64,000 nt of DNA, taken from the NCBI GenBank assembly GCA_000004985.1, contig GG738848.1. One strand, given 5' to 3'. How positions within the stretch are numbered: the first letter of the stretch is position 1; the number at the start of each line of letters is the position of its first letter. The DNA comes from Naegleria gruberi. Taxonomy: Eukaryota. The notes beneath the pieces were generated by a model. It saw only the letters and a list, made by a program, of their open reading frames with translations, was not told the origin of the DNA and did no database searches. Shown in pieces: positions 26,369 through 64,000 of this stretch. A program made the position numbers and the translations under genes.

Positions 26369-26394
26369 CTAATTTAAGGAGGCAAAAGGTTAAG

Positions 26395-26467
26395 TGGAGA
26401 TGCGGGGTATCGATCCCCGTACCTCTTCCATGCTAAAGAAGCGCTCTACCATGTGAGCTACATCCCC
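26395..26467 (-). tRNA. tRNA-Ala (anticodon AGC)
   Basis: Minus strand reads GGGGATGTAGCTCACATGGTAGAGCGCTTCTTTAGCATGGAAGAGGTACGGGGATCGATACCCCGCATCTCCA. Cloverleaf with G3:U70-type acceptor, anticodon loop TTAGCAT and T-arm GGGGATCGATACCCC. No encoded CCA. Confidence 0.85.
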
Positions 26468-33603: not shown

Positions 33604-36600
33604 ATGTCCCAACAACAACAACAACAACAGGAGGAAGAAATTGATCCAACATTGTTGAATTATAGAAACTTGACATTGTATGTAAAAAAGGGTGAAAGTA
33701 AGGATGTTGTCTCGGCATTGATCAGAGAGAATGAAAGTTCAAGTCAATCATCCTCTTCCGAAGATATTCAAAATAATGTGGAGGAGGCTTTTTCCAAGAC
33801 TGTTGATGAATCTACATTCCGAATTGAAGAATTAGATGAGGAGAGTTTAGAAAAATTATTAGCAGAATTATTAAAAGATCAAGATGATCAAGAAGTGTCA
33901 ATTCAACAAAATTATCTAATGAGAGAACAATCACTAAAACCTCCAGAACCTGGTACTGTTGAAATTAAACAACAAGTTGAATTTCCTCCTAAATTAGATC
34001 AATTAGAAACTGCCATAAATTCTGTAGGAAATTATCTGGCAGAAAAGGCAACAGAAAACAAGAAACAAGAAACAAACTTTAAAATCATTAGATCTGTTCC
34101 AACTGGAAAGCAAAATTCGGAAATAAGTTCAGTACCATTTATTTCCATTACATTTAGTCATGATATGATTGAAGAATTTGATGGAGAACCAAAATCATTT
34201 GAAGAAATTGATTTTGTTGAAATTAGTCCAGTCACTGAAAATGTTAAGGAAGGAAAATGGAAATGGATTGGAACTAAATCTTTAGTATTTCAACCAAGAT
34301 TCAGATTTGATAGATCTAATGAATTCACTTACAAGATTCTGAAAGAAAAGACCAAATCTGTGTTTGGTAACACGATTGAAGAAGATTTGGTGGTCACTTT
34401 CAAAACGCCAACATCACGCACTCTCTCAGTTATTCCTTCGTCAACAAGTTTCCCAATTTCCGAACTTCCTTTCATTTTCCTTCAATTTGATCAAGATATG
34501 GATAAGCAAAGTGTTCTTGCACATTTGTCAATAACAGTTTCTTCTAAATCTATTGGTGTAGAAGTATTAGAAGAAACATCAATTATTTCCAAAATGTTGG
34601 AAGATTTGGATTATGCTAAAAAGTTTCCATATGTTTTTGGATCATACAATAGATGCCTTCAAGGCACATATGACCCAAAGAGGTGTATGTGGCTGAAGTT
34701 GCATATTGCCAATGAAACTTTACATGCTGGAAAGGATTATCCAAAAATTGGATTAGGAGAATATTTGAGTATTTTATTGAAAAAGGGGTATAAGAGTTTG
34801 GAAGGACCAATACCGTCAGCTCATGAATACTCGACAGGTATTTATGGTTATTCCAAAATGGCAGTCAACTATCATTACCCAAAGAAACATTTATTTTATA
34901 ATGATATTTATCCAGGATGTTCATTTACTTTCAGTTTCAACAATCCAATTGATTTGGACAAGATAGAAAGTATTGAAACATTTGTCCAAGTTGAACCAGC
35001 CATTAAAAATTATAAGGTAACTTGTAATGGTAATAGTATTGTAATATCTGGTGATACACTTGCTAGAGAAAAGTATCGTGTGAAAATATTGAAAGGTGTC
35101 CCTGATATTTATAATCAAAGCTTGGAAAATGAATATGAAGCAACTTTTGAAGTGAGCGGAGAAGATAGAGAATTCAACATGACTCTTTCAAACTCAACAA
35201 TTATGCCACCTTGCTTGTTTGATTCACAAGATCCTTTTCTTTACTTTGATTCTGTAAATATTCAAGAAACTCATGTTATTATTAATCAAGTTGATCCTGT
35301 AGAAATGTACAAGGAAAGCTCTTTTCCCAAGTTAGCTGCAAAAACAGTATTTAATTCATATGATAATTATGATTACTTTGATTGGTATCCTCGTAAACCT
35401 CACAAGATTGGAAAGGAAGTTTTTGATCAAAAGGTAAAACCTGATAACTTTGTAAAAGATAGAACAGTTTCAACCAAGATTATGTTATCTCAATATCTCC
35501 AAAATGGAAAGACTGGATCTCTACTTGTTCACATCAAACCAAAGAGATCTATTTTATACAACTTATTTAATGGATACGAAACCAAGTGGATTCAAGTTTC
35601 AAATTTGTGTGCTGATATTATTAGTATCACAGGAGAGAAGGCAGCAGTTTTTGTTACTGATTTCTCAACTGGAAAACCAGTTCCAAATGCCACAGTAACT
35701 TTATCCTATTCTACCAATAATACACCAACGAAAGATGAAGACTTGAATATTATCTCAACAAGTGAAACAACAAATGAAAATGGAATGGCCTTCTTTTCCT
35801 ACAGTCGTAATTATCACACTGTTTTGATCATTTCAAAAGATCAAGATCAAGTTGTGTACACAAATCCAACAATTTACTCTCATTCAATCCGAACCGACAC
35901 AATTTCTGCTCATATATTTAATGATCGTGGTCTTTACAAGCCAAATGAAAATGTACATATCAAAGGTTTCCTTAGAGATATCAAGTACAATTATGAAAAG
36001 GGTTCTGAGAACTATGGCACCTATTCTATTAGAGAACCATCCACTGAAACTAAAGCTACCTATGAAGTTCAGGATTCTCGAGGTGTCAAATATTTGGATG
36101 GAAAGATTGAATTGAGTCCAAGTGGATCCTTTGTATTGGATTTAACTGTTCCTGATAATGCTAATTTGGGTTCTCATTCCTTGACAATTTGCTATGGATC
36201 TAGAAAATTTAACCACACTTTCAATGTTCAAGAATTTAGAACAAAAGAGTATACAGTTTCTAGCAGCATTATTCCTTCATCTGATAAGGTGGATTTGTTT
36301 ATTGGTGACAAATTGGTAAATAAGGTCAGCGCAAAGTATTATAGTGGAGGTGGCTTGTCCAATTCCCAAGTTAACTACCAGTTCAACACAGAACCTGCAA
36401 CCTTTAATCCAGAAGGATGGAGTAATTATGTCTTTCAAGATACAGATCTCAGAAATAATTACAAGCTCAATACTCTTATTGAAAATATGAAATCCAAATA
36501 TCAAGTATATCAAAGCTTTAACAGTGCAACTGACCCAAGCGGAGATGATCATGCCTTTATGCAGTTGTGGGATCCAGAAAAAATAGTAACTGGTCCAATA

Positions 36601-39600
36601 AGCATTAATTGTAAAGCAAATGTTCAAGATATTAATAGACAAACACAAGGAACATCTAGTGAGGTTATTCTCCACTCTTGTAAATACTATGTTGGTATTC
36701 GCTGTACAAAGAGAGTTGTTATGAAATCTGATGAAAATATTGACTGCTTTTTCATTGTTACAGATATTAGAGGTAAAATTGTAAAGGATATTCCAATATC
36801 TGTAAAATTGGTCAAGTTTGGTTATGATTCTAGGGGTTATGAAAGATGGGAAACCACTAAACCAATCAAGGAAATTAATCTAACCTCTCAAAGTCAACCA
36901 CTTCTTCATACATTTACCCTCAATGAAAACACAAATGATACTGCCTATGGAGAGTATGCAATTTTGTGTGAGGTAAAAGAGAGTGAAAGACCAAAATTTA
37001 GATCAGGCATTAACAGATGTAGTATTCCAATTCGTAAATTTGGATTTAAAGAACACTTGACATCAAAGGGATACACTTCACTCAGCACCAATTCACTTGA
37101 GTTAATTTCTAATAAGTTTGAAACTGATGAATACGAGCCAGGTGAAGAAGCCAAAGTTTATATTGTCTCTCCATTCAATGGTGAGTGCTCTGGATTTGCC
37201 TGGGTTTTATGCAATGGATTAATCAAAGAGGAGAGATTTGACATTACTAACGGTATCCATGAATTGACCATTCCAATCAAGAAGGAATACAGACCTAATA
37301 TCCAAGTAAGAGTTCAATTATTTGGTACTGAAAATTATATTGATGTTGATGACAAGCCAAGAGTTAATCCAGCTCATGCTACTGGATCTCTAACCCTCAA
37401 TATTTCCAAAACCGAGCATGAACTCACTGTAACTGTCACTCCAAAGGACCCAATCTTGAGTCCAGGAAAAGAAACTGATGTCAGCATTCTCGTAAAAGAT
37501 AAGCAAGGAAACAATGTACCAAATTGTGAGGTTTGTTTAATTGTTGCTGATCAAGCTGTTTTAGATATGGCCAATTATTCAGTTACCAATCCAATGTTTA
37601 CCTTTGTTTCTAACAATTCATGCTCTGTTGATTTCTCTTCGATAAGAGATCGAGTAAGATATTGGTTATATCCAAGAAAAAATCAAAGAGATGAAGAAAT
37701 CTTAGCAATAAGACAACAGGCACTCCCTTCTTCAAATTTGTGTGCATGTGATTTAGCTGGTTGCAGTGGAGGCCGTTCGCGTAAATGCTGTGAACAATGT
37801 GGCGAATGTGACGATATGGCTCAAAAGGAATGCAAACGTGAAAAGTGTTGCAAGAAGTCATGTGGCCTTGCATGTTTTTCTAGAAGGTGTTGTAAAAATA
37901 GTAAGGATTCATATGATGGCTCACGATCCCAGATGCCATCTATGGATGATAGAAATGGTGTATTTGAAATTCGTTCCAACTTTAAACCAGATGCTGCTTT
38001 TATTGGATTTGCTCAAACTGATGAAAATGGATTTGCAAAGCTTGATTTCAAATTGACTGACGCTCTCACAAAATTCAAAGTTACAGCTGTTGTAAATGCT
38101 AAACAAGACATGTTTGGTATTGGTAATTCTGCAATTACTACCAATTTACCTATTGCAGTTAGACCATCACTTCCAAGATTTTTGAATTATGGAGATTTAT
38201 GTGATTTGACCTATGTTTTACAAAATCAAACAGATTCTGATTTGACTCTTTCTCTAGTATGTAATGTATCAAATCTCAGAATATTCAATGGAAAGGATAA
38301 AAATCAACGTAAGAAGGGATATACTGTTGTGATACCAGCAATGGGAAGAAAAGAAATTAGAATTCCTGTTCAAGTACTCAAATGTGGTAAGGCTCTTATC
38401 AATCTTGGAGTTAGAGTGGTTAGAGCCATAGCCAAGAATCCTGAAAAGCAAGAACTTGCCGATGGAATGGTTGGATGGTCAGATGCTGTCAAGAATGATT
38501 TCAAAGTTTTTACTCCAGTAACCAATGAAGCTTTTGCAACGTATGGAGATGTTAGTGCAGAAAGTGAAACTATTGTACAACCAATTTCACTTCCATCCAA
38601 GAATCTATTGGCACACTTTGGTGAATTCACTGTTAGTACTTCAACAACAGCTCTATCTACATTGACTGATTCTCTCATTTATCTCTATTCTTATCCATAT
38701 GAGTGTAATGAGCAAATTGCATCAAAGATTTTAGGTATAGTTTGTATGAAGGAAATGATCTTACAATTCTACACACCTGAAGAGCTTCAAAGATTGATGG
38801 AAATTTCTGGAGAGGAAGAAGTTAACACATTCATTAATTCCAACCTTGCTAGATTATTTGATCGTCAAAGATATGACGGAGCATTCTCATATTGGGATAG
38901 CAAGTTAATTGGAGACCCATTCTTAACATGTCATGTAGCTCTCTGTTTTGCAAAATGTAAATCTGAAGGTTACAAAATCCCAGATCAAATATTATCAAGA
39001 ACCAAATCCATTTTGAAGAATATTTCAAGTTTATTCTTCTTTGGATTCCTTTGGCCAAGATGTATTAAGGATACAATCAAATCATATGCCTATTATATTT
39101 TATCATTGTTAGCTGAAAGTGAATCTGATAAGGGACAGGTAATTTCTCTGTGTGAAGGAATTCTTGATCATTATAATAGCATTACTGAATTGACACAAGA
39201 ATTATCCCCAGAGACTGCTGCCTACCTTGCTATGGCCATTCATAAATGTAAGAAGGAACCAGTAACAGAAGAAAAGAAGGGCTTCTTTGCTAAATTTACT
39301 AAAGAAAAGATAACTATTCATCAATGGTTGGATGCTATCAAATCATACTTTAAGGAAAATGTAACAATTGACTCTGGAATTTATGCTCACTTTATTACTC
39401 GTTATGAAGATAATGAACTCGCTCAAATGGTTATGTTGCATTCAAATACCAGAACTGATGCTGTTGTTTTGGGTTGTTTGATGGAAATTGATAGAGAAGA
39501 CAGTAGTGATATTATTCAAAAATTGGTGAGAAGTTTGTTGGCTGCCAGAAATGCAAACAGATATGGTCGTTGGTATAATACTCAAGAAAATTCCATCTGT

Positions 39601-40404
39601 CTCATGTCACTCACTGATTATTTCAAGATATTTGAGAAGGAAATTCCAGATATGAATGTCAATACTTGGCTAGTAGATAGTACTAGACCAGAGGAAACTG
39701 TATTCATGGGTAATCAATCTTGGAAGGGAAGAAGTAGAGAAAAGAAAACTACATCATTACCACTTGTTGCCTTTGTTCCACGAAGTGATATTGAAAAGGA
39801 AGTTGTTAATCCAAATGAAAGTGATTCCAAAAAGTCATTCTTGTTGACAAAGAATGGAGCTGGAAGGCTTTACTATAGAATTGCTCTTTCATACACTCCT
39901 GAAGAATTGGTTCTCAAAGCTCTTGATAAAGGATTTTCAGTTTCCAGAGTTTACGAAGCAATTACCAACCCAGATGATGTCAAGTTTGACAAGTCAACAA
40001 AAACATGGAAGGTAAAATCAGGAGAATTAGTCAGAGTAACAGTTACGATTTGCAATCCAACCAGAAGATACAATGTAGCCATGGTTGACAAGATGCCAGC
40101 AGGTTTCGAAGCTGTCAATCCAGAACTCGATACACAATTTACTGATTTTGGAAATAGTGGCAATGAAGAAGATTTAGCAAACAAATACTATTACAAATGG
40201 TTCGAAAATCAAAACATTAGAGATGAAAGAGTTGAAGCATTCAGCAGAATCTTATATGAAGGCTCCCACGTTTACAGTTATATATGCAGAGCTACTACGA
40301 TTGGATCATTTGTTTCTCCTCCAGCTTATATCGAAGAAATGTACTCTCCTGAATGCTTTGGAAGAAGTAAGACTGAGTTTGTGCAAGTTTATGATAAAAA
40401 ATAA
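33604..40404 (+). CDS. Giant alpha-2-macroglobulin / thioester-containing-protein-like protein (2266 aa), single exon
   Basis: Thioester-like PYECNEQ (CxEQ) followed by TED-type RQRYDGAFSYW. Many MG-like beta-rich repeats upstream. A Cys-rich insert at 37735-37915 sits where a bait region would be. Poly-Gln N-terminus with no signal peptide. Confidence 0.65.
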   Translation: MSQQQQQQQEEEIDPTLLNYRNLTLYVKKGESKDVVSALIRENESSSQSSSSEDIQNNVEEAFSKTVDESTFRIEELDEESLEKLLAELLKDQDDQEVSIQQNYLMREQSLKPPEPGTVEIKQQVEFPPKLDQLETAINSVGNYLAEKATENKKQETNFKIIRSVPTGKQNSEISSVPFISITFSHDMIEEFDGEPKSFEEIDFVEISPVTENVKEGKWKWIGTKSLVFQPRFRFDRSNEFTYKILKEKTKSVFGNTIEEDLVVTFKTPTSRTLSVIPSSTSFPISELPFIFLQFDQDMDKQSVLAHLSITVSSKSIGVEVLEETSIISKMLEDLDYAKKFPYVFGSYNRCLQGTYDPKRCMWLKLHIANETLHAGKDYPKIGLGEYLSILLKKGYKSLEGPIPSAHEYSTGIYGYSKMAVNYHYPKKHLFYNDIYPGCSFTFSFNNPIDLDKIESIETFVQVEPAIKNYKVTCNGNSIVISGDTLAREKYRVKILKGVPDIYNQSLENEYEATFEVSGEDREFNMTLSNSTIMPPCLFDSQDPFLYFDSVNIQETHVIINQVDPVEMYKESSFPKLAAKTVFNSYDNYDYFDWYPRKPHKIGKEVFDQKVKPDNFVKDRTVSTKIMLSQYLQNGKTGSLLVHIKPKRSILYNLFNGYETKWIQVSNLCADIISITGEKAAVFVTDFSTGKPVPNATVTLSYSTNNTPTKDEDLNIISTSETTNENGMAFFSYSRNYHTVLIISKDQDQVVYTNPTIYSHSIRTDTISAHIFNDRGLYKPNENVHIKGFLRDIKYNYEKGSENYGTYSIREPSTETKATYEVQDSRGVKYLDGKIELSPSGSFVLDLTVPDNANLGSHSLTICYGSRKFNHTFNVQEFRTKEYTVSSSIIPSSDKVDLFIGDKLVNKVSAKYYSGGGLSNSQVNYQFNTEPATFNPEGWSNYVFQDTDLRNNYKLNTLIENMKSKYQVYQSFNSATDPSGDDHAFMQLWDPEKIVTGPISINCKANVQDINRQTQGTSSEVILHSCKYYVGIRCTKRVVMKSDENIDCFFIVTDIRGKIVKDIPISVKLVKFGYDSRGYERWETTKPIKEINLTSQSQPLLHTFTLNENTNDTAYGEYAILCEVKESERPKFRSGINRCSIPIRKFGFKEHLTSKGYTSLSTNSLELISNKFETDEYEPGEEAKVYIVSPFNGECSGFAWVLCNGLIKEERFDITNGIHELTIPIKKEYRPNIQVRVQLFGTENYIDVDDKPRVNPAHATGSLTLNISKTEHELTVTVTPKDPILSPGKETDVSILVKDKQGNNVPNCEVCLIVADQAVLDMANYSVTNPMFTFVSNNSCSVDFSSIRDRVRYWLYPRKNQRDEEILAIRQQALPSSNLCACDLAGCSGGRSRKCCEQCGECDDMAQKECKREKCCKKSCGLACFSRRCCKNSKDSYDGSRSQMPSMDDRNGVFEIRSNFKPDAAFIGFAQTDENGFAKLDFKLTDALTKFKVTAVVNAKQDMFGIGNSAITTNLPIAVRPSLPRFLNYGDLCDLTYVLQNQTDSDLTLSLVCNVSNLRIFNGKDKNQRKKGYTVVIPAMGRKEIRIPVQVLKCGKALINLGVRVVRAIAKNPEKQELADGMVGWSDAVKNDFKVFTPVTNEAFATYGDVSAESETIVQPISLPSKNLLAHFGEFTVSTSTTALSTLTDSLIYLYSYPYECNEQIASKILGIVCMKEMILQFYTPEELQRLMEISGEEEVNTFINSNLARLFDRQRYDGAFSYWDSKLIGDPFLTCHVALCFAKCKSEGYKIPDQILSRTKSILKNISSLFFFGFLWPRCIKDTIKSYAYYILSLLAESESDKGQVISLCEGILDHYNSITELTQELSPETAAYLAMAIHKCKKEPVTEEKKGFFAKFTKEKITIHQWLDAIKSYFKENVTIDSGIYAHFITRYEDNELAQMVMLHSNTRTDAVVLGCLMEIDREDSSDIIQKLVRSLLAARNANRYGRWYNTQENSICLMSLTDYFKIFEKEIPDMNVNTWLVDSTRPEETVFMGNQSWKGRSREKKTTSLPLVAFVPRSDIEKEVVNPNESDSKKSFLLTKNGAGRLYYRIALSYTPEELVLKALDKGFSVSRVYEAITNPDDVKFDKSTKTWKVKSGELVRVTVTICNPTRRYNVAMVDKMPAGFEAVNPELDTQFTDFGNSGNEEDLANKYYYKWFENQNIRDERVEAFSRILYEGSHVYSYICRATTIGSFVSPPAYIEEMYSPECFGRSKTEFVQVYDKK
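33608..33632 (+). repeat. CAA trinucleotide run encoding poly-Gln
   Basis: (caa)7 at the start of the A2M-like ORF. Confidence 0.9.
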
Positions 40405-43012: not shown

Positions 43013-43285
43013 ATTTTTTTTTATATTTATTATTAGATAAAATATTTTTTAAAAAAAAACGGATTGTAAAAAAACCTAACGTTTGTCATATCTGTCTTGC
43101 TGCTCCTCTGAAAAGCCACTTCAAGCCTATTGCTAACTTGAGGAAGGAAGCTTGATTTTCATCTTGATTAATAGTAGTCAATAATAATTTATGTGATTGG
43201 CGGAAGAAGATATATAGCTACTCTGCATTGAAGCTTTTGAGAGAAGAATTTTAATAGTTTGGTTTCGATATATTGCATCATCGTG

Positions 43286-44116
43286 ATGATTTTAGGAAAA
43301 GTATTCGATCCAGACTTTGTTGTACACTCTATTAGTTACGAGAATGGAGGAAATAGTAATACTATGGTAAATAGGAATACAGTATTTTCATCCATTCTTC
43401 AACTTGGTGGGAAAGTAAAACAAGAAATGATGACAAGTATTAATAGTGGTGATTCTAAAGGAACAAACAAGGAACCTGTTCTTCCTTCACTACAATATTT
43501 GCAAACAAACCCTCTAGTGACTGGCAACTATAAGGAGACAATCAATAATAGGGAAGAATCTACAAGAGAAATTGCTTCCTCGGAAAATAGTGATGGCTCA
43601 CTCCTTCCCAAATTTCTAATAATTACCCACAAATTGAATCCTATTTCTATTGAGGATTTTATTGAATCTCTTAGTGGATGTATAAAAAGAATGTATGATA
43701 TTCAAAAGGAACAATTTCAGAATTTGAAGCAAAATATTCCTCATTATCACATTATTGATGGATTCACAATAGAAGGTGTTATTGCTTTACCAGAAGATAG
43801 ACAGAGTTCAGTATTTGTTCCATTTGCTGGAAATCGTGTGCATTTCAATGAAGATATGTTCTTTAGGTTGGTGGATGGATTATCAGAAGGTGTTAGTGAT
43901 GACTTGTTGCCTTCTCAGGTTGTAACTTGGCTCAATAATTCAATGTTGCCTTATTTTACAGATCCACAAAGAAAATTCCATTTTTTTGCTTTTGTACAGA
44001 CGCATGGTCATTCATCTATGCTGAAATCTGACACGTCCAGCGCGTTTGTAAAGAACCAGAGCCCGTTGAACAAGTTATGCACACAATTGGGTTTTCACAG
44101 GACTTCTAAATTGTGA
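43286..44116 (+). CDS. Hypothetical protein (about 276 aa)
   Basis: Continuous ORF with coding codon usage. The first ATG is at 43286; the ORF track begins at a TTG at 43259. No family recognised. Confidence 0.45.
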   Translation: MILGKVFDPDFVVHSISYENGGNSNTMVNRNTVFSSILQLGGKVKQEMMTSINSGDSKGTNKEPVLPSLQYLQTNPLVTGNYKETINNREESTREIASSENSDGSLLPKFLIITHKLNPISIEDFIESLSGCIKRMYDIQKEQFQNLKQNIPHYHIIDGFTIEGVIALPEDRQSSVFVPFAGNRVHFNEDMFFRLVDGLSEGVSDDLLPSQVVTWLNNSMLPYFTDPQRKFHFFAFVQTHGHSSMLKSDTSSAFVKNQSPLNKLCTQLGFHRTSKL

Positions 44117-44152
44117 TCACGTTTCAAAAAGACACAACAACACAAAAAAACA

Positions 44153-46225
44153 ATGAAACCTATGTTACTGCAAATCTGGTTGGTCGTTTCATATATTATT
44201 CTAATCAACCATGTTCATGTATCAACATGCTCACCTTCATATAGTTTAGATTTTATTTATTCAAAGAACTTTACAATACCGTCATTTGCGAAGGGGAAAG
44301 AGATCGATATAGCTAACATTAAAGAAGGAGATGTACTATCATATGGGTATTCCTTTTCTTTTTTATTGGTTAGAGAGGAAACCTTTCTTCATCTTAAGAT
44401 TACTACATTCAAGGATTTTATCACATACAACTACAACCAAACAATTGGAGTTGCAAGTGAGATGGTCCCATATTGGGAGGAAGTGCTTAAATTTTATTCA
44501 GTAGCTTCGATCAATTGGAAAACTTTTGAATACTATAATTCATTCTGTGCTCCAAATAACCCTTTCAACGAATATGACATTATCTTCACAAATAGGGAAG
44601 TATTCTTTGCAGCACATTTCTATGGCTCTGAACATTTGTTTAAATTTCTACCAATTAGAGCAATCCCTCTCTCCTTAAGATCTCAAGAAGCCTTTCCAGC
44701 ATCGTTTGCATATGCAATATCATTTGACAAACAGACGGATTTTATGAGCACAAATATTTACATGTACTTTAGATATGGAAATTTATCTGCAGATGATATT
44801 TCTTTTATCAAATTTTACTCTGGAGTTGAGAATGTTGTTGTGGACTATAACAGCTTTAAATCAATGATTGATAATGCTAGTAATCTGTACCATATTGATC
44901 TTGAAAACATTAAGCCAACATCAAGTGACTACTTTGATAACCTCAAAACTTACTATTTAAGTCCATATTTTGTAGACATGGATTACTGGCATATTCCCTG
45001 CATAGTATTAATCATATTATACTTTCTATTTCTATTTATTTCAAGACTGTTCTTGAAACCATCGATGAAAATTAGATTAATTATACCATATTTTCCTATT
45101 TTGATATTTATTCAGGAGATAGGAGGCTCTAACTATATATTCTATTATTGTTCAGAGTGGATTGGATATTTGAGAAGTTTTATTTTCTGTTTTGTTTGTT
45201 TTTCATATGGATTTACTGTGGTAAGAATATACTATCTCAGGAACATCTATTCTATTATGTATAACAACGAAAGTATAGACGAAAACAGAATTAAACGAAT
45301 GAAATTGTTAACTACTAAGAAGTTTGCTCTAGTTGCTATCCCTTTAGTTTCATTTATTCTATCATTTTTGCTAACCCTACAATGTGTAGCCTTATTTTTT
45401 GACATTGGATACAAAACAAGATTCTTAATTACAAATATTAGTTTTCCAATTTATCCAATAATTGGTGCTTTGATTGGTTTGTTTGCAATAATTGTAGACA
45501 TTAAAATGAATTGGAAACAAATTAGAGAAAATGGGGTTAAAAAGTTTCTACTTTGGGATGATGTGTATAATATTCGGATAGATTTAATGTTAATGTCAAT
45601 TTTATTGGTTTTGGTGATATCCATTGTGATTCTGTTTGCATTAGATGTTTACAATCATTCCATCAAAGTTTTGCTTTGGTTGTCGTATCTTGTTTTCACA
45701 TTAATTTGTGGTGGTAGTACTTTTATTAAGGAGCTAGTGATAGCCATACGAAAGGATAGAAGTCCAAAATCAGAATTAGAAAAGCTTTTAGAAAATCATT
45801 CATTCAGACAATTATTCAAAGAGTATAGCACAAAGGAATTATCACTTGAAAATTTTATGTTTTATGAAAAGTTGAGAGAATTGGTATCAAAATATGGAAT
45901 GAATGGTTTTATTCCACATGAAACTCTTCAACAAGTTGAAAACCAATTCTTTAAACAAGACTCTCCCTATGAATTGAATATACCATCCAGAACTAGAAAA
46001 CTCTTTTATGCCTTATTTGAAAATTATGAAAAACCAGATTCATCAAGTGCAGAATTAATTGAATATGCTAATACTACAAAAGTATCAGATTTATACACAA
46101 TTATTTACAATGATTTACTTACTAACATGTCTGATACTCAAAGTAGACTTATTGAAACTGATGTTTTTCAAAATTGGTATGCTGTATTTACTATTCAAAG
46201 AAAACAATCAGTGATTATTGTATAA
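44153..46225 (+). CDS. 7TM receptor-like protein with C-terminal RGS domain (AtRGS1 / fungal class VI GprK-like architecture) and about 280-aa N-terminal ectodomain
   Basis: Signal peptide. Cys/aromatic-rich ectodomain. Seven hydrophobic helices across 44990-45740. RGS box FRQLFKEYSTKELSLENFMFYEKLREL…LFYALFENY…FQNWY. Confidence 0.72.
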   Translation: MKPMLLQIWLVVSYIILINHVHVSTCSPSYSLDFIYSKNFTIPSFAKGKEIDIANIKEGDVLSYGYSFSFLLVREETFLHLKITTFKDFITYNYNQTIGVASEMVPYWEEVLKFYSVASINWKTFEYYNSFCAPNNPFNEYDIIFTNREVFFAAHFYGSEHLFKFLPIRAIPLSLRSQEAFPASFAYAISFDKQTDFMSTNIYMYFRYGNLSADDISFIKFYSGVENVVVDYNSFKSMIDNASNLYHIDLENIKPTSSDYFDNLKTYYLSPYFVDMDYWHIPCIVLIILYFLFLFISRLFLKPSMKIRLIIPYFPILIFIQEIGGSNYIFYYCSEWIGYLRSFIFCFVCFSYGFTVVRIYYLRNIYSIMYNNESIDENRIKRMKLLTTKKFALVAIPLVSFILSFLLTLQCVALFFDIGYKTRFLITNISFPIYPIIGALIGLFAIIVDIKMNWKQIRENGVKKFLLWDDVYNIRIDLMLMSILLVLVISIVILFALDVYNHSIKVLLWLSYLVFTLICGGSTFIKELVIAIRKDRSPKSELEKLLENHSFRQLFKEYSTKELSLENFMFYEKLRELVSKYGMNGFIPHETLQQVENQFFKQDSPYELNIPSRTRKLFYALFENYEKPDSSSAELIEYANTTKVSDLYTIIYNDLLTNMSDTQSRLIETDVFQNWYAVFTIQRKQSVIIV

Positions 46226-46357: not shown

Positions 46358-47325
46358 ATGAGTTTATTGGAGGTGATCAATCACCCACTCGTCAAGTCGG
46401 GTCACTCTGTTTTAAAGAACGCTTTTGATACATATCAATCTTTGGATGCTACTCTTGTATTTAACTTATTCTTTTTAAGTCATGCTTTTATTGTTGCCTT
46501 GATGGTCAAGAGATGTTTTGAAGGCTTGATCGCTAAAGGAAAAGTCAAGGAAATTCCTTTTGTTGCCGGAATGTTGTTGTGCTTTGCTGTTGGTACTGGT
46601 GGAGCTATTTTAACTTCTCTCCTCTTAGGAAAAACACAAATCTTCTTTGATAATGATATTATTAATTTATATTTAATTTGGTAGGTTGATGATTGTGATT
46701 ATTTACAAACAAAATAAGTGCTTGGATCATTACAATTTATGCACCATTTAACCTTGTTGATATCCTTTTGGGTAATGCCCTAGTTCAACTTTTTACTTTT
46801 GCTGCTGAAGGATTCTTTGTTGGTGGATTTTGTATTGGTGGAGTTAATAGAGGTGCTGCTGAATATCCACAATCACACTTTGCACCAATTATTCTTGGTT
46901 CTATTGCTTGTGTTGGAGGTGCTATTTTGAGACCATTCTTTGTCAATCTCTATGTTGGTGAAAGTGTTGAAGGAAGTGTTTTGAGCTCACCAAATTTCAC
47001 TCTTAAGGCTCCAATTTTGATAAGTGCTTTCCTCTATGTCACCAAGTTTATTCTCAAATTGGATGTTATTGAAATTCCATTGTCTTCTATTCCAGTTAAG
47101 GAAATTTCTGGACAAGTCATTGCATTCACACCTGAACAACTTGTTAAGGCATACTTTGTTTTGCACTTTATCATTATTTATTATATTTCACATCCATTCT
47201 TCCAAAAGGCTCCAAAGGTTGTAAAGAAGACATCTGTTGCTACTGTTACCACAACAAGTGTTGAACAACCATCATCAGCTGATAAATCTTCCAATAAGAA
47301 AAAGGAAACTAAGAAGAATAAGTAA
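46358..47325 (+). CDS. Polytopic membrane protein, possibly TRIC/TMEM38-like cation channel. Two exons: 46358-46680, 46719-47325
   Basis: Gly-rich intramembrane motifs FAVGTGGAIL and FCIGGVNRGAAE in two halves. Phase-2 GTAGGT…AATAAG 38-nt intron. K-rich C-terminus. Family assignment is tentative. Confidence 0.45.
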
Positions 47326-48432: not shown

Positions 48433-50514
48433 TTATTTTCTATTTGATAGGATTTTCTTTACAGTTTTGTTATCTGAACTCAAAACGAGATCAGGAGCAA
48501 TGTTCAGAACAATATCACCAGTAATTCCTTGTTTTACAATATAATTCTCTTGCGCTAATTTTTCAGTACTATCTGCAATTTCAGTAAAGTTACTTCTGAA
48601 ATCGTCATCAAGTATCTCTTCATATTTTCTTCTAAATTCCTCAGAGGTTATTTCTCCATTAAACTTTTCCTTCTCAGATGCAACACAGCAAAGTATGACA
48701 AGTACTTCAATTGTTGTCTGACCTAATCCTTTTAGTATATCCAATTTTCTGCTAAATTGTGTATTTACAAGTTTTATCAGCTTACTTGTATCCAAGGTAT
48801 GAGCAATTGGAATCAAGTGAGTTTCCACAAATGATTTAATTTGTCTCATATCATGTTTGTTCTTTAAGAGACCCATCATTTTCTGAATCATATCTGCTGA
48901 AATCTTGTGCTTGTATTCATGAACAAGGATTGAGGTAATATCATCCTGTTCATACTGATTAAATGCCAAAAAGTTAATACCTGGATTCTTTGGTGGATCG
49001 TTGGTGATGGCCAATATTATTACTTTAGCCACTCGAATTTGTTCCAGATATTTGTTATGCTTGCTATATGAAAATTCATCAAGTAAGATGAGTGCTGGTG
49101 TGTGCTTCTTATTGAAATACTCCAATAACTTGGTGATTCTCTCTTGCTTCTTTGTTGAATCTGTTGATCGAGTGTAAACTTTTTCATAGAGCCTATATAT
49201 CAAATCAGATGCTTTTTCTGAACCAGCTAAATTCAATTGATACTTTTCCAAACAAGATGCATCAAATACTGAAGTTGTTACCATTGTTTTTCCTTGACCA
49301 TTAGTTCCGTAAATAAAAAGCACATTCTTTTGGGGATTAAAATCTTCATAACAGTTTTGGATAAAGTTAATTATTGTATCACATTCCTGCTTTCTTGAGA
49401 ATACTTCAACGTTTTGATTAAAGATTTTTGGTGATGATTTTTGTTTCTTTAGAGAAGATTCAAAAGGATGTTTCTCTTGTTCTTCTTCTCTTTCTGTGAC
49501 TGGAAGCTTAGCAATTGTCTTTCTTCTTGCTTGTCTTTGTTTTTTTGGAACTATTTCAATCTCGTCTTCAGATAGTAATGGTTCTTCAGTTTTCACAACC
49601 AAATCTTGTGAATCCTCAACTGGTTCAATTTTGACTTTTTGTCTGCGTCCTTGCCTAGATTTAACAGGAACAGGTTCTAATACTTCTTCTTGTGGTTGTT
49701 GCTGTATCTCATTAACAATAGGCACACTAGTTGAGGGTGAAACAATTTCTTGTGAATCTTCGGCTACTGTTGGAGGTACTGTTTCGTCTTTCGTTTCTGG
49801 AGTGATGCTAATAGTAGGTCGGGCTTGCCTCTTCTTTGTTCTAGTTTTAACAGATGCATGAATTACAGGGGATTGAATGTTGTTGGTAGTAGTATTCGAA
49901 TTGGATTGTTGTGATGAACTAGTTTCTTGAATTGGAGATTGTCTAACTAGATGAGTTTGAGGAGGGGAAAGAGGTGAAATTGATGGAGGCATCATTGGAA
50001 TTGAATGTTGACTATTGCTGTATGGACTTTGTGATAATGAGCTTTCGACTGGCATATTTCTCATTGGTGTTGAAAAGCTTCTAGAGGTTGTTGGACTGAA
50101 AAAGTATTCTCTTGTTTGATTAACAGATGTAATATATTGATCTCGATCCATAAGATCGATTTCTCTTTGTTCTGGTGGTAGTAATAAGAGTTTCTTCCAC
50201 AGCAGTCTATATTGAGTATTAGAGGTAATTTTAATGTCCTTGTTTGTTTTAATATCGTGAAAAACAATCACAAATTTACTCCTATCAACATTAGGATCAT
50301 CTATCACTTCCGACATTAAAAATTGTCTTGTTGATTCAATATCGGAATTTTCTTGTAATAGAGTTGTAGTTACACCATAATTTAAACACGATAGAGTGAC
50401 TTCCATTTCATCGGTAACACTATCATCAATCATGGAATGATCGGACAGAAGTGATGAGGAGAAAGAAGAGGTTTGTCTCCTTGTTGATGTATCTGTGATG
50501 TGTTGTTGACTCAT
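48433..50514 (-). CDS. Cdc6/Orc1-family AAA+ replication-initiation ATPase-like protein (693 aa)
   Basis: Walker A YGTNGQGKTMV and Walker B ILLDEFSY. Many S/T-P sites in the N-terminal half. C-terminal winged-helix-like region. Confidence 0.62.
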   Translation of the reverse strand: MSQQHITDTSTRRQTSSFSSSLLSDHSMIDDSVTDEMEVTLSCLNYGVTTTLLQENSDIESTRQFLMSEVIDDPNVDRSKFVIVFHDIKTNKDIKITSNTQYRLLWKKLLLLPPEQREIDLMDRDQYITSVNQTREYFFSPTTSRSFSTPMRNMPVESSLSQSPYSNSQHSIPMMPPSISPLSPPQTHLVRQSPIQETSSSQQSNSNTTTNNIQSPVIHASVKTRTKKRQARPTISITPETKDETVPPTVAEDSQEIVSPSTSVPIVNEIQQQPQEEVLEPVPVKSRQGRRQKVKIEPVEDSQDLVVKTEEPLLSEDEIEIVPKKQRQARRKTIAKLPVTEREEEQEKHPFESSLKKQKSSPKIFNQNVEVFSRKQECDTIINFIQNCYEDFNPQKNVLFIYGTNGQGKTMVTTSVFDASCLEKYQLNLAGSEKASDLIYRLYEKVYTRSTDSTKKQERITKLLEYFNKKHTPALILLDEFSYSKHNKYLEQIRVAKVIILAITNDPPKNPGINFLAFNQYEQDDITSILVHEYKHKISADMIQKMMGLLKNKHDMRQIKSFVETHLIPIAHTLDTSKLIKLVNTQFSRKLDILKGLGQTTIEVLVILCCVASEKEKFNGEITSEEFRRKYEEILDDDFRSNFTEIADSTEKLAQENYIVKQGITGDIVLNIAPDLVLSSDNKTVKKILSNRK

Positions 50515-55558: not shown

Positions 55559-58500
55559 TTAAATGTGATACAATTCGTGAATCATGAAAAAGTATTCAAT
55601 TGGACAATATAATTTGAGTTTTCGTACCATCTCTTCATCTAATTTGATCGTTATCAATAAATCTCTACATTGATTGATAATTTCAAATAATTGTTCAATA
55701 ATGAAAGGTTTTAAATGTTCATGTTCCATCAAATCAATAAAAATTCTCATTCCTTTCAAAATTTCATCAGAGGCAACAGAATTTAAACTCAACGAGCTTA
55801 TAGTTCCATTACTATTGTTATTGGAATTTTGAATCAGAGAAGTTTCATAATTATAAGAATGATTAATGGATTCATTCTTCAATGCAGTAATATCATTTAG
55901 AACATTAAATCTACTTGTTATTGTTTCTAATCCTAAACGAACAATTTGATGTTCCATACATGGTTGTATTAAACCTTTCAATACTTGATTAGGAAAATAT
56001 GAAATATGAGTTGTAACATTAGAATATCCAAAATTTAAAGAATCAACAATTAATGAAGATGCAGCACTAATATTTCCAAATAAACTTGTTAAGGTTGATT
56101 TACGTCTATTGTTAGATTGTCCAGATGATCCAATAGTATTATAATTACCAGCATTGCCACTATTATTTGTCTGTTGTTGAGAATCTTGAGAATTAATATT
56201 ATTATAAATTGAATAATTTGGAAACATGGCACTTGTTGGTGAATTCATTCCTCCTCCAACTCCACCACCCATAAATGTACCACTATTATTATTGCTATTG
56301 CTTGTAGTATTAGAAGTAGGAGGATATAACAAGTGAGAAAGTTGAACTGTCCACTCACTAATATTCACACCACTATTATTCATTCCACCAACACTACTAA
56401 CATTACCAAAACTTCCACCTATACCACCTATATTATTATTACTTGAATTATTATTACTACCACCACCTATATTACCAATATTATTATTATTACCAGTATT
56501 AATATTATTATTACCAGTATTATTAATATTATTATTATTATTACTTGAACCACCATTAAAAGATTGTGAAGTTGTTGCAATTAATCTTTTTAAAATTGTT
56601 TGTTCAAATTCTTCTTTTTGTTGTTGATTAGTTCCAAATTTAATGAAATGAAAAATGTGATTTAATAATTTTTGAGTATTTGAATTTAAAATAAAAGAAG
56701 AAATTCCATCAATTAATTGTCTTTCAATAATAGTATTACTAAATAAAGATAAAGTATTAACATTTGATAAATTTTGATCTTTTCTAAAAATTTCATTTAA
56801 ATAAAAACAAGCATAAAATCTAATTATAAAAGGTTGATTTCCATTTTGAATTAAATCCATAAATCTTTTTATAACTCTTTCAGATGAAATTGGTAAAATT
56901 GATAAAACTTTAAAAGTTTTAATAATTAATTCATTATTAATTTCATAATTATTTCTATTATCATCATGAATAAATAATAATAATAACATTGATAAATTAT
57001 TTAATAATTGTTCATGTAAATTATTTTTAATATTTCCATTTTTAGTAGTAATATTACTATTTATAGTATTATCATTATATTTATAGTAATTAATTAAATA
57101 TTCTTTCATAATTTTTAAATAATGTTTATAAACAAGTAAAAGTAAAATTGTTTGTTTAAATTCAGATAAAGGTTGTTGTGAAATTCTAATTAAAGATTTA
57201 AATAAAATTGATAATAAATCACAAAATATTCTTTCTATAATAATTGGAACTCCTTTACATGTAATTGTATAATTTCCATATATAGGTAGTAATTTAGTTA
57301 CTATATATAGACATGATAAATGTTGTTCTAAATTAAAATTTTGATCAAAATAATATAATTCTATATTTGTAGGTATTGAAGCAATTCCTTTTTGTTCATT
57401 ATTATCTAATAAATTTGGTAATAAATATGAAATACATAATTTTAAAATATGTGAAATTTTACCATTTGAATTTAATTCTAAAAATTCAAATTGATTTAAT
57501 AAATTTTTATGTGAAATTTCCATTTCTGTATTATTATTACCATTTTTATCAGAATGAGAAGAAGAACAAGATGATGATGATGAATCTGAAATATCATCTG
57601 AAATATCATCTTCATCTTCTGAATTTACTATATTTGTTAATAAAATTGTAATTGATTTTGCTAAATTTAAAAATCTTGGAATTAAATAATTTTTTTTAAT
57701 TAAAATATATTCCCTTTTTAAATATTGATCATTTTCAATTTGTAAAATATATTGATTATTATTAATATTATTAAATAAATTATTTTGATTATTTAAAATT
57801 CTTTCCATAATTATTAATAAATGAATTTCCTTATTAGTAGAAATAGTTTCAATTAATTTTACAAAATTTAAATCTAAAGAATTTAAAATACAATTATCAA
57901 TAATTGATAAAATACTTGTTTTAGAATTACTATTTATAGTAAAATTAAAAGGTACATAAATGGAAATTAATTTACTCATGTAAGATTCATCTTGTTCAAA
58001 AATATCAATAAATTTAATTAAATGATCATAAAATAATTTGTTAAATTCAATTGAATTATTATAAATTTTACCTAAAAAATTAAAATTAATTAATTTTTTA
58101 AAATCATCCATAATTTTATCTAAAATTAAATTATCAATAATTAAATTTAAATTTAATAATTGTAATAAAAAATTAGAACAATTAATTTTTTCATTATTTT
58201 TATAATTTTTAAATAAAAAATTATATAATTGATAAACAATTTTATAACTATCATAACTTGTTTTAGATTCCAAATTTGGAGAAATAAATTCATCTGGATT
58301 TATATTTTGAATTATATTAATTAAAGTTAAAATTAAATTAAATAAAATTATAATTCCTTCATCATTTTTATAATTATTAATTAAAATTAATAAATCATTA
58401 ATTGACTTTTTTAGTAATTTCATATAAACATTTAAAATTTGTCTATTTTGTATAATTTCTATATTTGAATTTAAAATAATTAATAATAAAAATGGTGTTG

Positions 58501-59418
58501 TATTATAAATATTTAATAATAAATTACTCATTTGTTCAAATAAATAATTTAATTGGCAATGTTCAATTAATTTAGTAATTCCAAAACAAGTATGTACATA
58601 ATTAGAAATATTAAAATTTGTAATATTAAAAAAATCAGAATCATTAAATTCACTTAAATTAATTGGTTGTGATAATTTTAAAGAAGGTGTAATTGACCTT
58701 CTAAAAATAGATTTTGTTTTCTTTTTTTCTAAATTTATAATTAAATCTTCAGAAATTTTCTTATTTTTTAAAAAATCACTTAAAATTTCTATAAATGTAT
58801 TTGAATTTAAATCATTATTATTAAAATAACTTGTTTCATTTTTAATTAAAATTCTTAAAGCAATTTGTTGAATACTTGTATATTTAGAAGTAACTGCCCT
58901 TTTTAGATATTCTCTATATATAGTTTCAATTTCTTGTATATCTTTTAATTCTCCATTTATATTATTAAGAACATTACTTCCATTTATATTATTATTATTA
59001 TTATTATTAGTAGTATTATTAGTAGTAGTGGATGATGATGATGGTGATGAATTATTCCATAAATTACCACTATTAGATTTATTAGATGATAATCCATTTA
59101 AAATACTACTTGTATGATTATTCATACTATTATATTGTCTTGAATGTTGTTGTTGTTGTTCTTTCTTATTTCTTATATTCATTATATTCATTATACTATT
59201 ATTACTATTATTATTATTATTAGATCTACTACTATTATTTTTAAAAGAATTAGAAGTAGATGATAAATTATCAACACTATTTGAATAATTTGTTGTTGAT
59301 GATGAAATTTGTCTAAAAGAAGATAATTCATTCTTTCTTCTAATTTGATTTGTAAATTGTTCAAGTTTATCCAATGATAAATTTCTAATTAAAATTCTTT
59401 CAATAATTAATTCTTCAG
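55559..59418 (-). CDS. C-terminal portion of giant Asn/Ser-rich protein-kinase gene (continues across the assembly gap)
   Basis: 1271-aa ORF, open in frame right up to the N-run. Asn/Ser homopolymer tracts and a Leu-rich helical region. Confidence 0.6.
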
Positions 59419-59468
59419 NNNNNNNNNNNNNNNNNNNNNNNNNNNNNNNNNNNNNNNNNNNNNNNNNN
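59419..59468. other. Assembly gap (run of 50 N) inside a coding region
   Basis: Literal n characters. The ORF is open on both flanks. Confidence 0.99.
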
Positions 59469-62400: not shown

Positions 62401-63664
62401 AATTGATTTGATGATAAATAATTATTTTGAGGTGTAATATAAGAAGTAATTTCCAATTTTACTTCTTTTAAAAATCGAATATAATCAAATTTTCCTTTTA
62501 TAGAAAATATTAAATTATCTTCATCTTGAATTCTTTTAAATAAATCATATAACATTACATTCATATTATTTTCATTAAATGTTTCAGATTTATCTTCTTC
62601 CTCGTTTTCATTAAAAATATTACTATATATATATAAATTACTAAAATATTCATCCTTAAATGGAAAGTTTTTACAATTTTGTACACATTTTACAAAAGTA
62701 TAAATGGAAACATTATTTTCACTATCACTTGATAATAAAGTTTTTAAAACTTTTTCAGATTTTGAATGAAAAGCAGATTTTGTAAAAAAATAATAACAAT
62801 CTTTAAATTCATTCCAAGAAACTTTGTAATTTTGAGTTCCAAACATTTGATCCCAAAAATGTCTTGCTAATCTATAAATAATATAATAGGTAGATGTAAA
62901 TTTATGTATAAATGATAATGAATTTCCTAAATTAGTATTTCCTAAATTGGATGATTGATTATTCATTAAAATATTACTTAAATTAGAAGACATGGGTGAT
63001 GATGAAATCATTTGAATATTTCTAGGTGAAAAATCTAATCCATTATTATTATTATTATTATTATTTATATTTATATTATTTATATTATTTATATTATTAT
63101 TTATATTATTATGATCTATTAAATTTAAATTATATGAAGAAATTGATTGTATTGAATCAATATCTTTTTGAATTGATTCTAATGCAGATAAAATATCTAC
63201 TTTTTCATCCATACTTGTATTTATATTTCCATTAATGGATGTATTATTACCATTAATAGAATGATGATTGTGATGATTATTATTAATATTATTATTAAAA
63301 TTTGATTCTTTTCTTTCTTTTAATAAAAAATTTAAACATTCAGTTGCATTTAATCTTTCACTTGAATCTAATCTTAAACATTTATATACCAATTTTAGTA
63401 ATATTGAATGTCCTTTATCAAGTAATAAAGTTAATAAATTAAAAGATTGATTCTTATCAATACATTCACTTATAAAATTATCAATTACTAATTTAGTTTC
63501 ATAATTATTTGAACAATTAAATAATAAATCTCTTAATGAATCAAATCGACTTCTCCTTTTTTGTACAAGTAATTGTAATGCTACTATTCCTAATGCCCAC
63601 ATATCAACTGATTCATTATAATATTTACCATCAAATATTTCAGGTGCCATATAATTTTTAGATC
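59469..63664 (-). CDS. Central exon of giant protein-kinase gene: kinase C-lobe followed by ~1350 aa Asn/Ser/Gln-rich low complexity
   Basis: …GSKNYMAPEIFDGKYYNESVDMWALGIV… (subdomains VIII-XI), then poly-N/NNI repeats. Acceptor AAAAAG|GATC at 63665. Confidence 0.65.
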
Positions 63665-63779
63665 CTTTTTTTAAAATTATTAAAATATTAAAATATTATT
63701 TATGGAAATTATTTAATATATATGGAAATTAATATATAAAATTAATATGAATAAATGAATATGAATGAATAAAACTTAC

Positions 63780-63930
63780 CTGTTATACTCATAAGAGGTG
63801 AATCACCAACTTTAAATTCACGTGTTAATCCAAAATCAGATAAATAAATTTGAGCATTTTCAATAATTTCCTTATATGATAAATTTGTATCATTTGTTTT
63901 TTTAGATTGTAATAAAATATTATCAGGTTT
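63780..63930 (-). CDS. Protein-kinase exon (catalytic loop to activation segment) of the same gene; more 5' exons lie beyond the window end
   Basis: KPDNILLQSKK…IYLSDFGLTREFKVGDSPLMSITG. GTAAGT donor (plus 63774-63779) and AATTTAG acceptor. A 115-nt AT-rich intron lies between this exon and the next. Confidence 0.65.
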
Positions 63931-64000
63931 CTAAATTATTTAAATATATTTATAAATATTAATAAATATTAATAAATTAAAAATATTAAAAATATAAAAA

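What the first reader, a model, noticed from the sequence alone, without database searches (positions are those of the whole stretch)
44153..46225. 7TM-RGS receptor with unusually large N-terminal ectodomain
Seven predicted TM helices are followed directly by a canonical RGS box. That architecture is known from plant AtRGS1 and fungal class VI GPCRs. Here it is preceded by a signal peptide and a ~280-aa Cys/aromatic-rich extracellular domain, which suggests a ligand-binding ectodomain coupled to intrinsic GAP activity.
Basis: partly seen in the sequence, partly recalled or inferred. Interest (0 to 1): 0.55.

Follow-up and report, generated by a model that had tools for sequence, protein, structure and literature searches.

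The report
Naegleria 7TM-RGS receptor, solute-binding-type ectodomain
This intact Naegleria gruberi gene encodes a seven-helix membrane receptor fused to a G-protein "off-switch" (RGS) domain, a receptor family already published for Naegleria; what is new is that its outer domain is predicted to fold like a bacterial solute-binding protein and that the public gene model keeps only the last third of the protein.

Summary

The interpretation, a ligand-sensing receptor with built-in GAP activity, is reasonable but not unusual. Naegleria has a published, expanded 7TM-RGS family (28 genes in N. fowleri, PMC9283941), and some of those RGS domains were shown to be GAPs. The tested members have ectodomains of roughly 1000 aa or more, so this one is small by comparison. 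An exhaustive search found 125 related cluster representatives; 50 of the 128 related sequences analysed share this ectodomain plus the 7TM core.

Verdict: a new member of a known kind, of moderate interest.

The parts
44153..46225 (+). Complete single-exon gene, 690 codons plus TAA stop; full-length 7TM-RGS receptor
   Evidence: ORF list and sequence. Homology to full-length Naegleria paralogs runs from aa 96 to 687 (E=2.8e-72), so the part upstream of the public model is coding and in frame.
44153..44224 (+). Signal peptide (aa 1-24), MKPMLLQIWLVVSYIILINHVHVS; cleavage not tested
   Evidence: Hydropathy of the query and of the family. Modelled as a lone helix followed by a low-confidence linker at aa 25-44. 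No signal-peptide predictor was available.
44225..44980 (+). Ectodomain (aa 25-276), predicted type-II periplasmic-binding-protein-like bilobed alpha/beta fold; aromatic-rich, 2 Cys, 4 N-glycosylation sequons
44981..45751 (+). Seven-transmembrane GPCR-fold core (aa 277-533): TM1 277-299, TM2 309-331, TM3 334-363, TM4 389-415, TM5 420-452, TM6 474-496, TM7 501-533. Family motifs: KPSxKxRL-xPY-P (ICL1), YLRN-Y after TM3, N453...G461...DD(469-470)...R475 (ICL3)
45764..46210 (+). RGS domain (aa 538-686) with all canonical G-alpha contact residues and a variable insert between helices alpha6 and alpha7 (about aa 628-650)
   Evidence: Pfam PF00615, 28.3 bits, aa 542-627. Profile against the PDB. Contact-residue mapping. 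The query keeps 23 of 23 family-conserved positions. Foldseek TMt 0.71 to 2gtp_C, RGS1 bound to G-alpha-i1.
45506..46225 (+). Extent of the deposited public gene model NAEGRDRAFT_62703 / XP_002681969.1 / D2V1U9 (239 aa, starts at internal Met452): only TM6, TM7 and the RGS domain
   Evidence: P0008 is 100% identical to aa 452-690. The full 690-aa product is not in the 15-billion-protein collection.

Best explanation
This is a full-length member of the Naegleria (heterolobosean) seven-transmembrane RGS receptor family.

Shown by sequence or model: a signal peptide directs a ~250-aa bilobed, solute-binding-protein-like domain to the cell exterior. A GPCR-fold seven-helix bundle crosses the membrane with the N-terminus outside and the C-terminus inside. 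A cytoplasmic RGS domain follows TM7 directly and keeps an intact G-alpha-binding surface.

Inferred, by analogy with AtRGS1 and with the N. fowleri 7TM RGS proteins whose isolated RGS domains were tested biochemically: the tethered RGS domain accelerates GTP hydrolysis on one or more of Naegleria's many G-alpha subunits, some of which self-activate. This holds them in the GDP state at the membrane.

More speculative: binding of a small extracellular molecule in the cleft of the clamshell ectodomain is passed through the 7TM bundle, or acts through receptor removal or phosphorylation. This changes the RGS domain's access to G-alpha and so turns signalling on or off. The layout is reminiscent of class C GPCRs but has GAP output rather than GEF output.

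This particular paralog is divergent. It has lost four conserved extracellular cysteines and part of a conserved ectodomain motif, so its ligand specificity may be altered or lost.
For: Organism: neighbouring ORFs match N. gruberi NAEGRDRAFT proteins exactly, on a 712,659-bp scaffold.

Architecture.

RGS: Pfam score above the gathering cutoff; PDB RGS matches at E=1.4e-8; all G-alpha contact residues present and invariant or nearly so in 30 relatives; 23 of 23 conserved RGS positions kept; structural match to RGS1 in a G-alpha complex.

Family: 125 representatives at E<=1e-3 and 29 at E<=1e-30, including N. fowleri, N. lovaniensis and N. gruberi proteins of 746-784 aa. Of 128 related sequences analysed, 40 have ectodomain+7TM+RGS and 10 more have ectodomain+7TM cut off by a contig end.

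Precedent for function: N. fowleri has 28 7TM RGS genes. The RGS domains of Nf 7TM RGS2-4 act as GAPs on, or bind, Nf G-alpha 2/3/5/7, two of which are self-activating (PMC9283941).

Ectodomain fold.
Against: No experiment bears on this protein.

The query lacks family-conserved ectodomain features: D164 is K, it has a 12-residue deletion in the RxxRD...RK...N-SDF motif, and it keeps only 2 of 6 conserved extracellular Cys. It also differs at an otherwise invariant Pro in ICL3, P471 to V.

I could not show that any retrieved relative is one of the four biochemically tested N. fowleri proteins.

The closest relative is only 34-35% identical, so there is no evidence of a conserved ortholog.
Confidence: 0.72

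Rival explanations
1. It is a bifunctional receptor. The 7TM bundle is a genuine G-protein-coupled receptor (a GEF) that activates G-alpha on ligand binding, and the tethered RGS domain then shuts the same G-alpha off quickly. It would be a self-limiting GPCR rather than a pure receptor-GAP.
For: The 7TM core has a true GPCR fold. It has strongly conserved cytoplasmic-loop motifs, the YLRN-Y motif after TM3 and a conserved ICL3, in the places where GPCRs contact G proteins. The N. fowleri paper reports only one clear conventional GPCR candidate, 13 G-alpha subunits, and diverse nucleotide-cycling kinetics of which only G-alpha 5 and 7 are called self-activating. Some other GEF would therefore be needed.
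Against: No 7TM-RGS protein is reported to have GEF activity in the papers read here, and the conserved loops could equally position the RGS domain. Nothing in the sequence separates this reading from the best explanation.
Confidence: 0.15
2. It is a degenerate, ligand-blind paralog. The ectodomain no longer binds a ligand, and the protein acts as a constitutive membrane-anchored GAP, as a non-binding partner subunit of a dimer with another family member, or is on its way to becoming a pseudogene.
For: The query keeps only 6 of 10 conserved ectodomain positions, against 23 of 23 in the RGS domain. It has three deletions relative to the family consensus, including the juxtamembrane C-x2-C-x4-C motif. 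Four of six conserved extracellular Cys are lost. No relative is closer than about 35% identity.
Against: The ORF is fully intact over 2070 nt in a 31% GC gene, where chance stop codons would be frequent. The ectodomain still models confidently as a folded domain, with pLDDT 85-97 over most of it. The TM and RGS parts are well conserved.
Confidence: 0.1
3. It is a gene-model artefact. The true gene is only the deposited 239-aa product, and the upstream 451 codons are not translated as part of it.
For: The public annotation (NAEGRDRAFT_62703) starts at Met452. No transcript evidence was available here. The ATG at 44153 lies only 36 nt after the stop of an upstream same-frame ORF.
Against: The reading frame is open for all 690 codons. 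Residues 96-451 align to full-length paralogs from three Naegleria species (E down to 2.8e-72). A 239-aa product would contain only two TM helices of a seven-helix bundle. The N-terminus has a signal peptide at the position where paralogs start.
Confidence: 0.03

Closest known systems
Naegleria fowleri 7TM RGS proteins (28 genes; Nf 7TM RGS1-4 studied by Bosch, Jeck and Siderovski, J Biol Chem 2022, PMC9283941)
   Same: Same genus, and the same order of parts: extracellular N-terminal domain, seven TM helices, C-terminal RGS. An N. fowleri 'RGS domain-containing protein' (FDP41_008785, 769 aa) aligns over aa 181-687 at E=1.2e-67. The G-alpha contact residues are canonical, consistent with the canonical RGS/G-alpha interface shown experimentally in that paper.
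   Different: The four tested proteins are much longer, with RGS fragments starting at aa 1036-2293. The paper describes a sizable number of the family, including these four, as having EGF-like repeats, lectin/carbohydrate-binding domains and GPS motifs. It does not mention a periplasmic-binding-protein or solute-binding type ectodomain. I could not match any retrieved relative to those four proteins.
Arabidopsis AtRGS1 (plant 7TM-RGS)
   Same: Seven TM helices followed by a cytoplasmic RGS domain. The proposed logic is also the same: a receptor-GAP restrains a self-activating G-alpha until an extracellular cue relieves it (as summarised in PMC9283941 and PMC8584482).
   Different: From my own knowledge, AtRGS1 has essentially no ectodomain, whereas this protein has a ~250-aa folded one. 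Homology between the two 7TM regions was not tested, because no AtRGS1 sequence was held and the AFDB library was unavailable. The architecture may have arisen independently.
Class C GPCRs (mGlu, GABA-B, CaSR, T1R)
   Different: Class C receptors use a type-I PBP domain (ANF_receptor) and the 7tm_3 family. Here the best fold matches are type-II PBPs, and no Pfam 7TM or ANF_receptor family is hit. The output is a fused GAP, not G-protein activation. This paralog lacks the Cys linker. Class A receptors score equally well on the 7TM part, so no class can be assigned.
Bacterial type-II substrate-binding proteins (OpuBC/ProX/EgtU, PhnD, SsuA/NMT1-THI5-like, ModA/TupA) and the iGluR/GLR ligand-binding domains
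   Different: Sequence identity is 9-14%. Only about half of the domain aligns. The query itself has no significant sequence match. The domain is fused to a eukaryotic 7TM-RGS rather than serving a transporter or an ion channel.

Membership tests
RGS domain (Pfam PF00615) | Profile match above the curated gathering score | tested here: met
   28.3 bits against a cutoff of 23.9, aa 542-627, profile positions 2-83 of 117. The match is truncated by a variable alpha6-alpha7 insert. 23 of 33 family members also hit RGS at E<=0.01.
RGS domain (Pfam PF00615) | All-helical RGS-box fold | tested here: met
   Tested on the AF2 model. Foldseek prob 1.00 and TMt 0.71 to RGS1 (2gtp_C); also RGS18, RGS9 and RGS17.
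RGS domain (Pfam PF00615) | G-alpha contact residues (RGS4 E83, S85, E87, N88, E126, N128, D163, S164, R167) | tested here: met
   They map to E562, S564, E566, N567, E607, N609, D661, T662 and R665, all invariant or nearly invariant in 30 relatives. The EfSxEN and EvN motif registers are independently confirmed by HMMER alignments to RGS17 and RGS18.
RGS domain (Pfam PF00615) | GTPase-accelerating activity on a G-alpha subunit | not testable with these tools
   Needs a biochemical assay.
7TM-RGS receptors (Naegleria family) | Seven TM helices N-terminal to, and continuous with, the RGS domain, with the RGS domain cytoplasmic | tested here: met
7TM-RGS receptors (Naegleria family) | Sequence homology across 7TM and RGS to Naegleria 7TM-RGS proteins | tested here: met
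   E=1e-67 to 1e-72 to N. fowleri, N. lovaniensis and N. gruberi full-length proteins. 85 of the 128 related sequences match both the 7TM and the RGS sub-profile.
7TM-RGS receptors (Naegleria family) | Identity or orthology with the experimentally tested Nf 7TM RGS1-4 | tested here: inconclusive
   Peptides encoded by the published cloning primers found no convincing match in the relatives held; only a 4-residue primer peptide matched, at inconsistent positions and without the C-terminal match. The library holds one representative per 50% cluster, so absence is uninformative.
Plant AtRGS1 / fungal class VI GPCR | Homology of the 7TM region to AtRGS1 or to fungal 7TM-RGS proteins | not tested
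   No reference sequences were held and the AFDB library was unavailable. Only the order of domains is shared.
Class C GPCR | 7tm_3 transmembrane family and ANF_receptor (type-I PBP) ectodomain | tested here: not met
   Pfam finds only RGS at significant E-values. The best ectodomain fold matches are type-II PBPs. Class C TM domains are no better matched than class A.
Type-II periplasmic binding protein fold (Pfam PBP clan) | Two alpha/beta lobes joined by a hinge, matching solved SBPs | tested here: met
Type-II periplasmic binding protein fold (Pfam PBP clan) | Significant sequence match to an SBP family | tested here: inconclusive
   The query has none. Paralog P0041 hits NMT1/THI5 at 22.3 bits against a cutoff of 20.5. 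Two of 27 ectodomains hit NMT1, best E=3.5e-5. The family profile against PDB sequences gives no hit.

The most novel reading that the evidence does not exclude
The roughly 50 cluster representatives that share this ectodomain could form an undescribed receptor class in heterolobosean amoebae: a type-II solute-binding (clamshell) domain, usually a short Cys linker, a GPCR-fold 7TM bundle, and a fused RGS domain. In effect this would be an 'inverse class C receptor', in which closure of the clamshell around a small nutrient or osmolyte-like molecule switches a tethered GAP and so releases self-activating G-alpha subunits. Because solute-binding domains can be expressed as soluble proteins and screened, this would give the first 7TM-RGS proteins with a directly identifiable ligand.
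Probability: 0.3. Interest if true: 0.6.

Novelty: new member of a known kind. Interest (0 to 1): 0.36.

Why it matters
How extracellular cues control 7TM-RGS proteins is still unsettled, even for AtRGS1, whose direct ligand remains debated (for example bioRxiv 10.1101/2025.09.10.672744, listed). The Naegleria paper states that whether these proteins act as surface receptors "remains to be determined".

A subfamily whose ectodomain is a recognisable small-molecule-binding fold gives a practical route: express the soluble ectodomain, screen for ligands, then test the effect on GAP activity. This matters for understanding receptor-GAP signalling in eukaryotes that rely on self-activating G-alpha. 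It may also matter for the pathogen N. fowleri, which has homologs.

On a smaller scale, the public N. gruberi model for this locus is truncated to 239 aa and hides the receptor architecture. Domain-architecture surveys that rely on that annotation would count it as a short RGS protein.

This particular paralog looks like a divergent member, so it is probably not the best one to study first.

Tried and rejected
1. The search for homologous proteins with the full protein and with the ectodomain alignment returned nothing. It missed even the 100%-identical P0008, so the word index is unusable for this family and the zero results mean nothing.
2. Exact look-up of the 690-aa product: absent from the collection. 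This led to the truncated-model finding.
3. The look-up of encoding contigs for P0008 and for a neighbouring gene: not on record. The public gene calls around the locus could not be displayed.
4. tblastn of the protein against the window: no paralog within the 64 kb.
5. Matching relatives to Nf 7TM RGS1-4 through the peptides encoded by the published primers: no convincing match.
6. An ectodomain profile against PDB sequences and ectodomains against NCBIfam: only noise. Sequence-level support for the PBP fold is limited to Pfam NMT1 hits in two paralogs.
7. Pfam on long relatives (800-1370 aa) to identify other ectodomain types: nothing beyond RGS.
8. The AFDB50 fold library was unavailable. 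Model coordinates are not exposed to scripts, so I could not check the binding cleft or a possible C132-C333 disulfide.
9. Anantharaman et al. 2011 (PMC3396428) and Bradford et al. 2013 (PMC4871593), the papers most likely to have catalogued such architectures, are not held. Prior description of a PBP-type 7TM-RGS cannot be excluded.
10. The bacterial promoter/terminator scan is irrelevant for a eukaryote and was ignored.
11. I considered and rejected a fusion with the upstream same-frame ORF by readthrough or an intron. A signal peptide and an A-rich ATG context sit at 44153, and paralogs begin at the equivalent point.

Full report
WHAT IS THERE. Window 44153..46225 (+) is one uninterrupted ORF of 690 codons ending in TAA. 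The ATG sits in an A-rich context (aaaaaaacaATG). It lies 36 nt downstream of the TGA of an upstream ORF that happens to be in the same frame. The window comes from Naegleria gruberi: seven neighbouring single-exon ORFs are identical to NAEGRDRAFT proteins on a 712,659-bp scaffold. GC content is 29-37% over the gene-dense part.

CHECK OF THE OBSERVATION. Hydropathy of the protein and of a 33-member family alignment gives an N-terminal signal-like segment (aa 1-24) and exactly seven TM segments. Lys+Arg counts in the loops are 2, 0, 5, 2, 5, 0, and 6 in the C-tail. This fits an N-out/C-in topology, which puts the ectodomain outside and the RGS domain in the cytoplasm.

The C-terminal domain passes Pfam RGS, 28.3 bits against a cutoff of 23.9. 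The family profile hits only RGS domains in PDB sequences (best E=1.4e-8). Foldseek matches RGS1 from its G-alpha-i1 complex at TMt 0.71. The Pfam match stops at profile position 83 of 117 because the family has a variable insert between helices alpha6 and alpha7.

The residues RGS4 uses to contact G-alpha are E83, S85, E87, N88, E126, N128, D163, S164 and R167. They map to E562, S564, E566, N567, E607, N609, D661, T662 and R665, and are invariant or nearly so in 30 relatives.

One descriptive claim fails. The ectodomain (aa 25-280) has 2 Cys (0.8%), so it is not Cys-rich. It is aromatic-rich: 20.4% F+Y+W, against 13.5% in paralog ectodomains and 9.8% in the other long ORFs of the window.

RELATIVES. 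The word-index protein search found nothing, but this was a tool failure. An exhaustive phmmer scan of 1.84 billion representatives found 125 proteins at E<=1e-3, 74 at E<=1e-10 and 29 at E<=1e-30. Most are 600-800 aa and about 30-35% identical across the TM and RGS regions, and often across the ectodomain too. The named ones are all Naegleria: N. lovaniensis C9374_011226, N. gruberi NAEGRDRAFT_70394 and _74523, and N. fowleri FDP41_008785. The rest come from unnamed metagenome assemblies.

I searched the 128 related sequences held locally with sub-profiles for the three regions. 40 have ectodomain+7TM+RGS. 10 have ectodomain+7TM and are cut by contig ends. 45 have 7TM+RGS with no ectodomain or a different one. 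31 have RGS only. There is no paralog inside the window.

PUBLIC ANNOTATION. The top hit, P0008, is 100% identical to aa 452-690. It is the deposited model for this locus: NAEGRDRAFT_62703 / XP_002681969.1 / D2V1U9, a 239-aa 'predicted protein'. The full 690-aa product is not in the collection. The frame is open throughout, and aa 96-451 align to full-length paralogs. The deposited model is therefore truncated at an internal Met and retains only TM6, TM7 and the RGS domain.

THE ECTODOMAIN. Foldseek of the full model also found E. coli PhnD, the Lmo1422 substrate-binding domain and an OpuBC-derived sensor. One paralog weakly hit Pfam NMT1/THI5.

- many LysR effector domains

Sequence-level support is thin. 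Two of 27 paralog ectodomains hit NMT1/THI5-like (best E=3.5e-5). One full-length paralog, P0041, scores 22.3 bits against a cutoff of 20.5. NCBIfam and a profile search of PDB sequences gave nothing. I put the PBP-II fold assignment at about 0.75.

This paralog is a divergent member of its subfamily. It keeps 23 of 23 family-conserved positions in the RGS domain and 29 of 33 in the TM core, but only 6 of 10 in the ectodomain. It has three deletions relative to the consensus, including the juxtamembrane C-x2-C-x4-C motif. It keeps only C132 and C333 of six conserved extracellular Cys columns.

COMPARISON WITH WHAT IS KNOWN. 7TM-RGS proteins are well documented in plants (AtRGS1) and many protists (de Mendoza et al. 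2014, PMC3971589). Bosch, Jeck and Siderovski (2022, PMC9283941) report 28 7TM RGS genes in N. fowleri. They describe several with 'complex extracellular N termini' (EGF-like repeats, lectin domains, GPS motifs). They show that isolated RGS domains of Nf 7TM RGS2-4 accelerate GTP hydrolysis on, or bind, Nf G-alpha 2/3/5/7 through a canonical interface, and that G-alpha 5 and 7 are self-activating. Their tested proteins are far longer, with RGS fragments starting at aa 1036-2293.

That paper does not mention periplasmic, solute-binding or Venus-flytrap-type domains, and a full-text search found no paper linking such domains to Naegleria or RGS. Two potentially relevant surveys, Anantharaman et al. 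2011 and Bradford et al. 2013, are not held, so I cannot exclude an earlier description.

MECHANISM.
- Shown by sequence or model: the domain order, the topology, the GPCR fold, and an intact G-alpha-binding surface on the RGS domain.
- Inferred from the N. fowleri and Arabidopsis precedents: the RGS domain is a membrane-tethered GAP for one or more Naegleria G-alpha subunits.
- Speculative: a small molecule binds the clamshell ectodomain, and the 7TM bundle (or ligand-induced internalisation or phosphorylation) changes the GAP's access to G-alpha. This would be a class-C-like layout with inverted output.

Rivals are a combined GEF and GAP receptor, a ligand-blind degenerate paralog, and a gene-model artefact. 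They are listed with their tests.

VERDICT. The architecture is real and correctly read apart from 'Cys-rich'. It is a new, mis-annotated member of a known and published kind. The modest additions are a predicted solute-binding-type ectodomain, shared by about 50 related cluster representatives, and a corrected gene model. Interest is moderate to low for this gene alone. It would be somewhat higher for the subfamily if the PBP-type sensor idea holds and has not been described before.

Noticed in passing
window 43259..44116 (+) and 44114..44152: An upstream 285-codon ORF with no Pfam hit is in the same reading frame as the receptor gene. Only one TGA plus 36 nt separates it from the receptor's ATG, which is an extremely short intergenic spacer if both are genes.
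   Followed up: partly
window 33604..40404 (+): A 2266-aa ORF with bacterial-type alpha-2-macroglobulin domains (bMG10 at E=5.7e-30, A2M_BRD, MG2, A2M) in a eukaryotic scaffold. It may be of bacterial origin.
   Followed up: no
window ~56000..64000: GC content drops from about 0.30-0.36 to 0.18-0.23, although two very long minus-strand ORFs (55559..59374 and 59415..63650, one with a protein-kinase-like motif) lie there. An assembly gap (run of N, seen as X in translation) sits near 59.4 kb.
   Followed up: no
window 46358..46684 and 46768..47325 (+): Two adjacent ORFs encoding hydrophobic, Gly-rich segments look like two exons of one multi-pass membrane protein gene, split by a short intron just downstream of the receptor. 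Neither piece has a Pfam hit.
   Followed up: no
window 26394..26467 (-): A tRNA-Ala (anticodon AGC) gene lies immediately next to the 25061..26368 ORF.
   Followed up: no
family alignment A1; query positions 132, 266, 269, 333: Relatives share six conserved extracellular Cys columns: one in the PBP-like domain, one mid-domain, three juxtamembrane, and one at the top of TM3. This suggests three disulfides, possibly including a tether between the linker and the TM3/ECL1 region. The query keeps only C132 and C333.
   Followed up: partly
window 48433..50514 (-): The neighbouring 693-aa protein (NAEGRDRAFT_62705) has a weak AAA_22 / NB-ARC-type P-loop NTPase signature, so it may be a STAND-like NTPase.
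   Followed up: no
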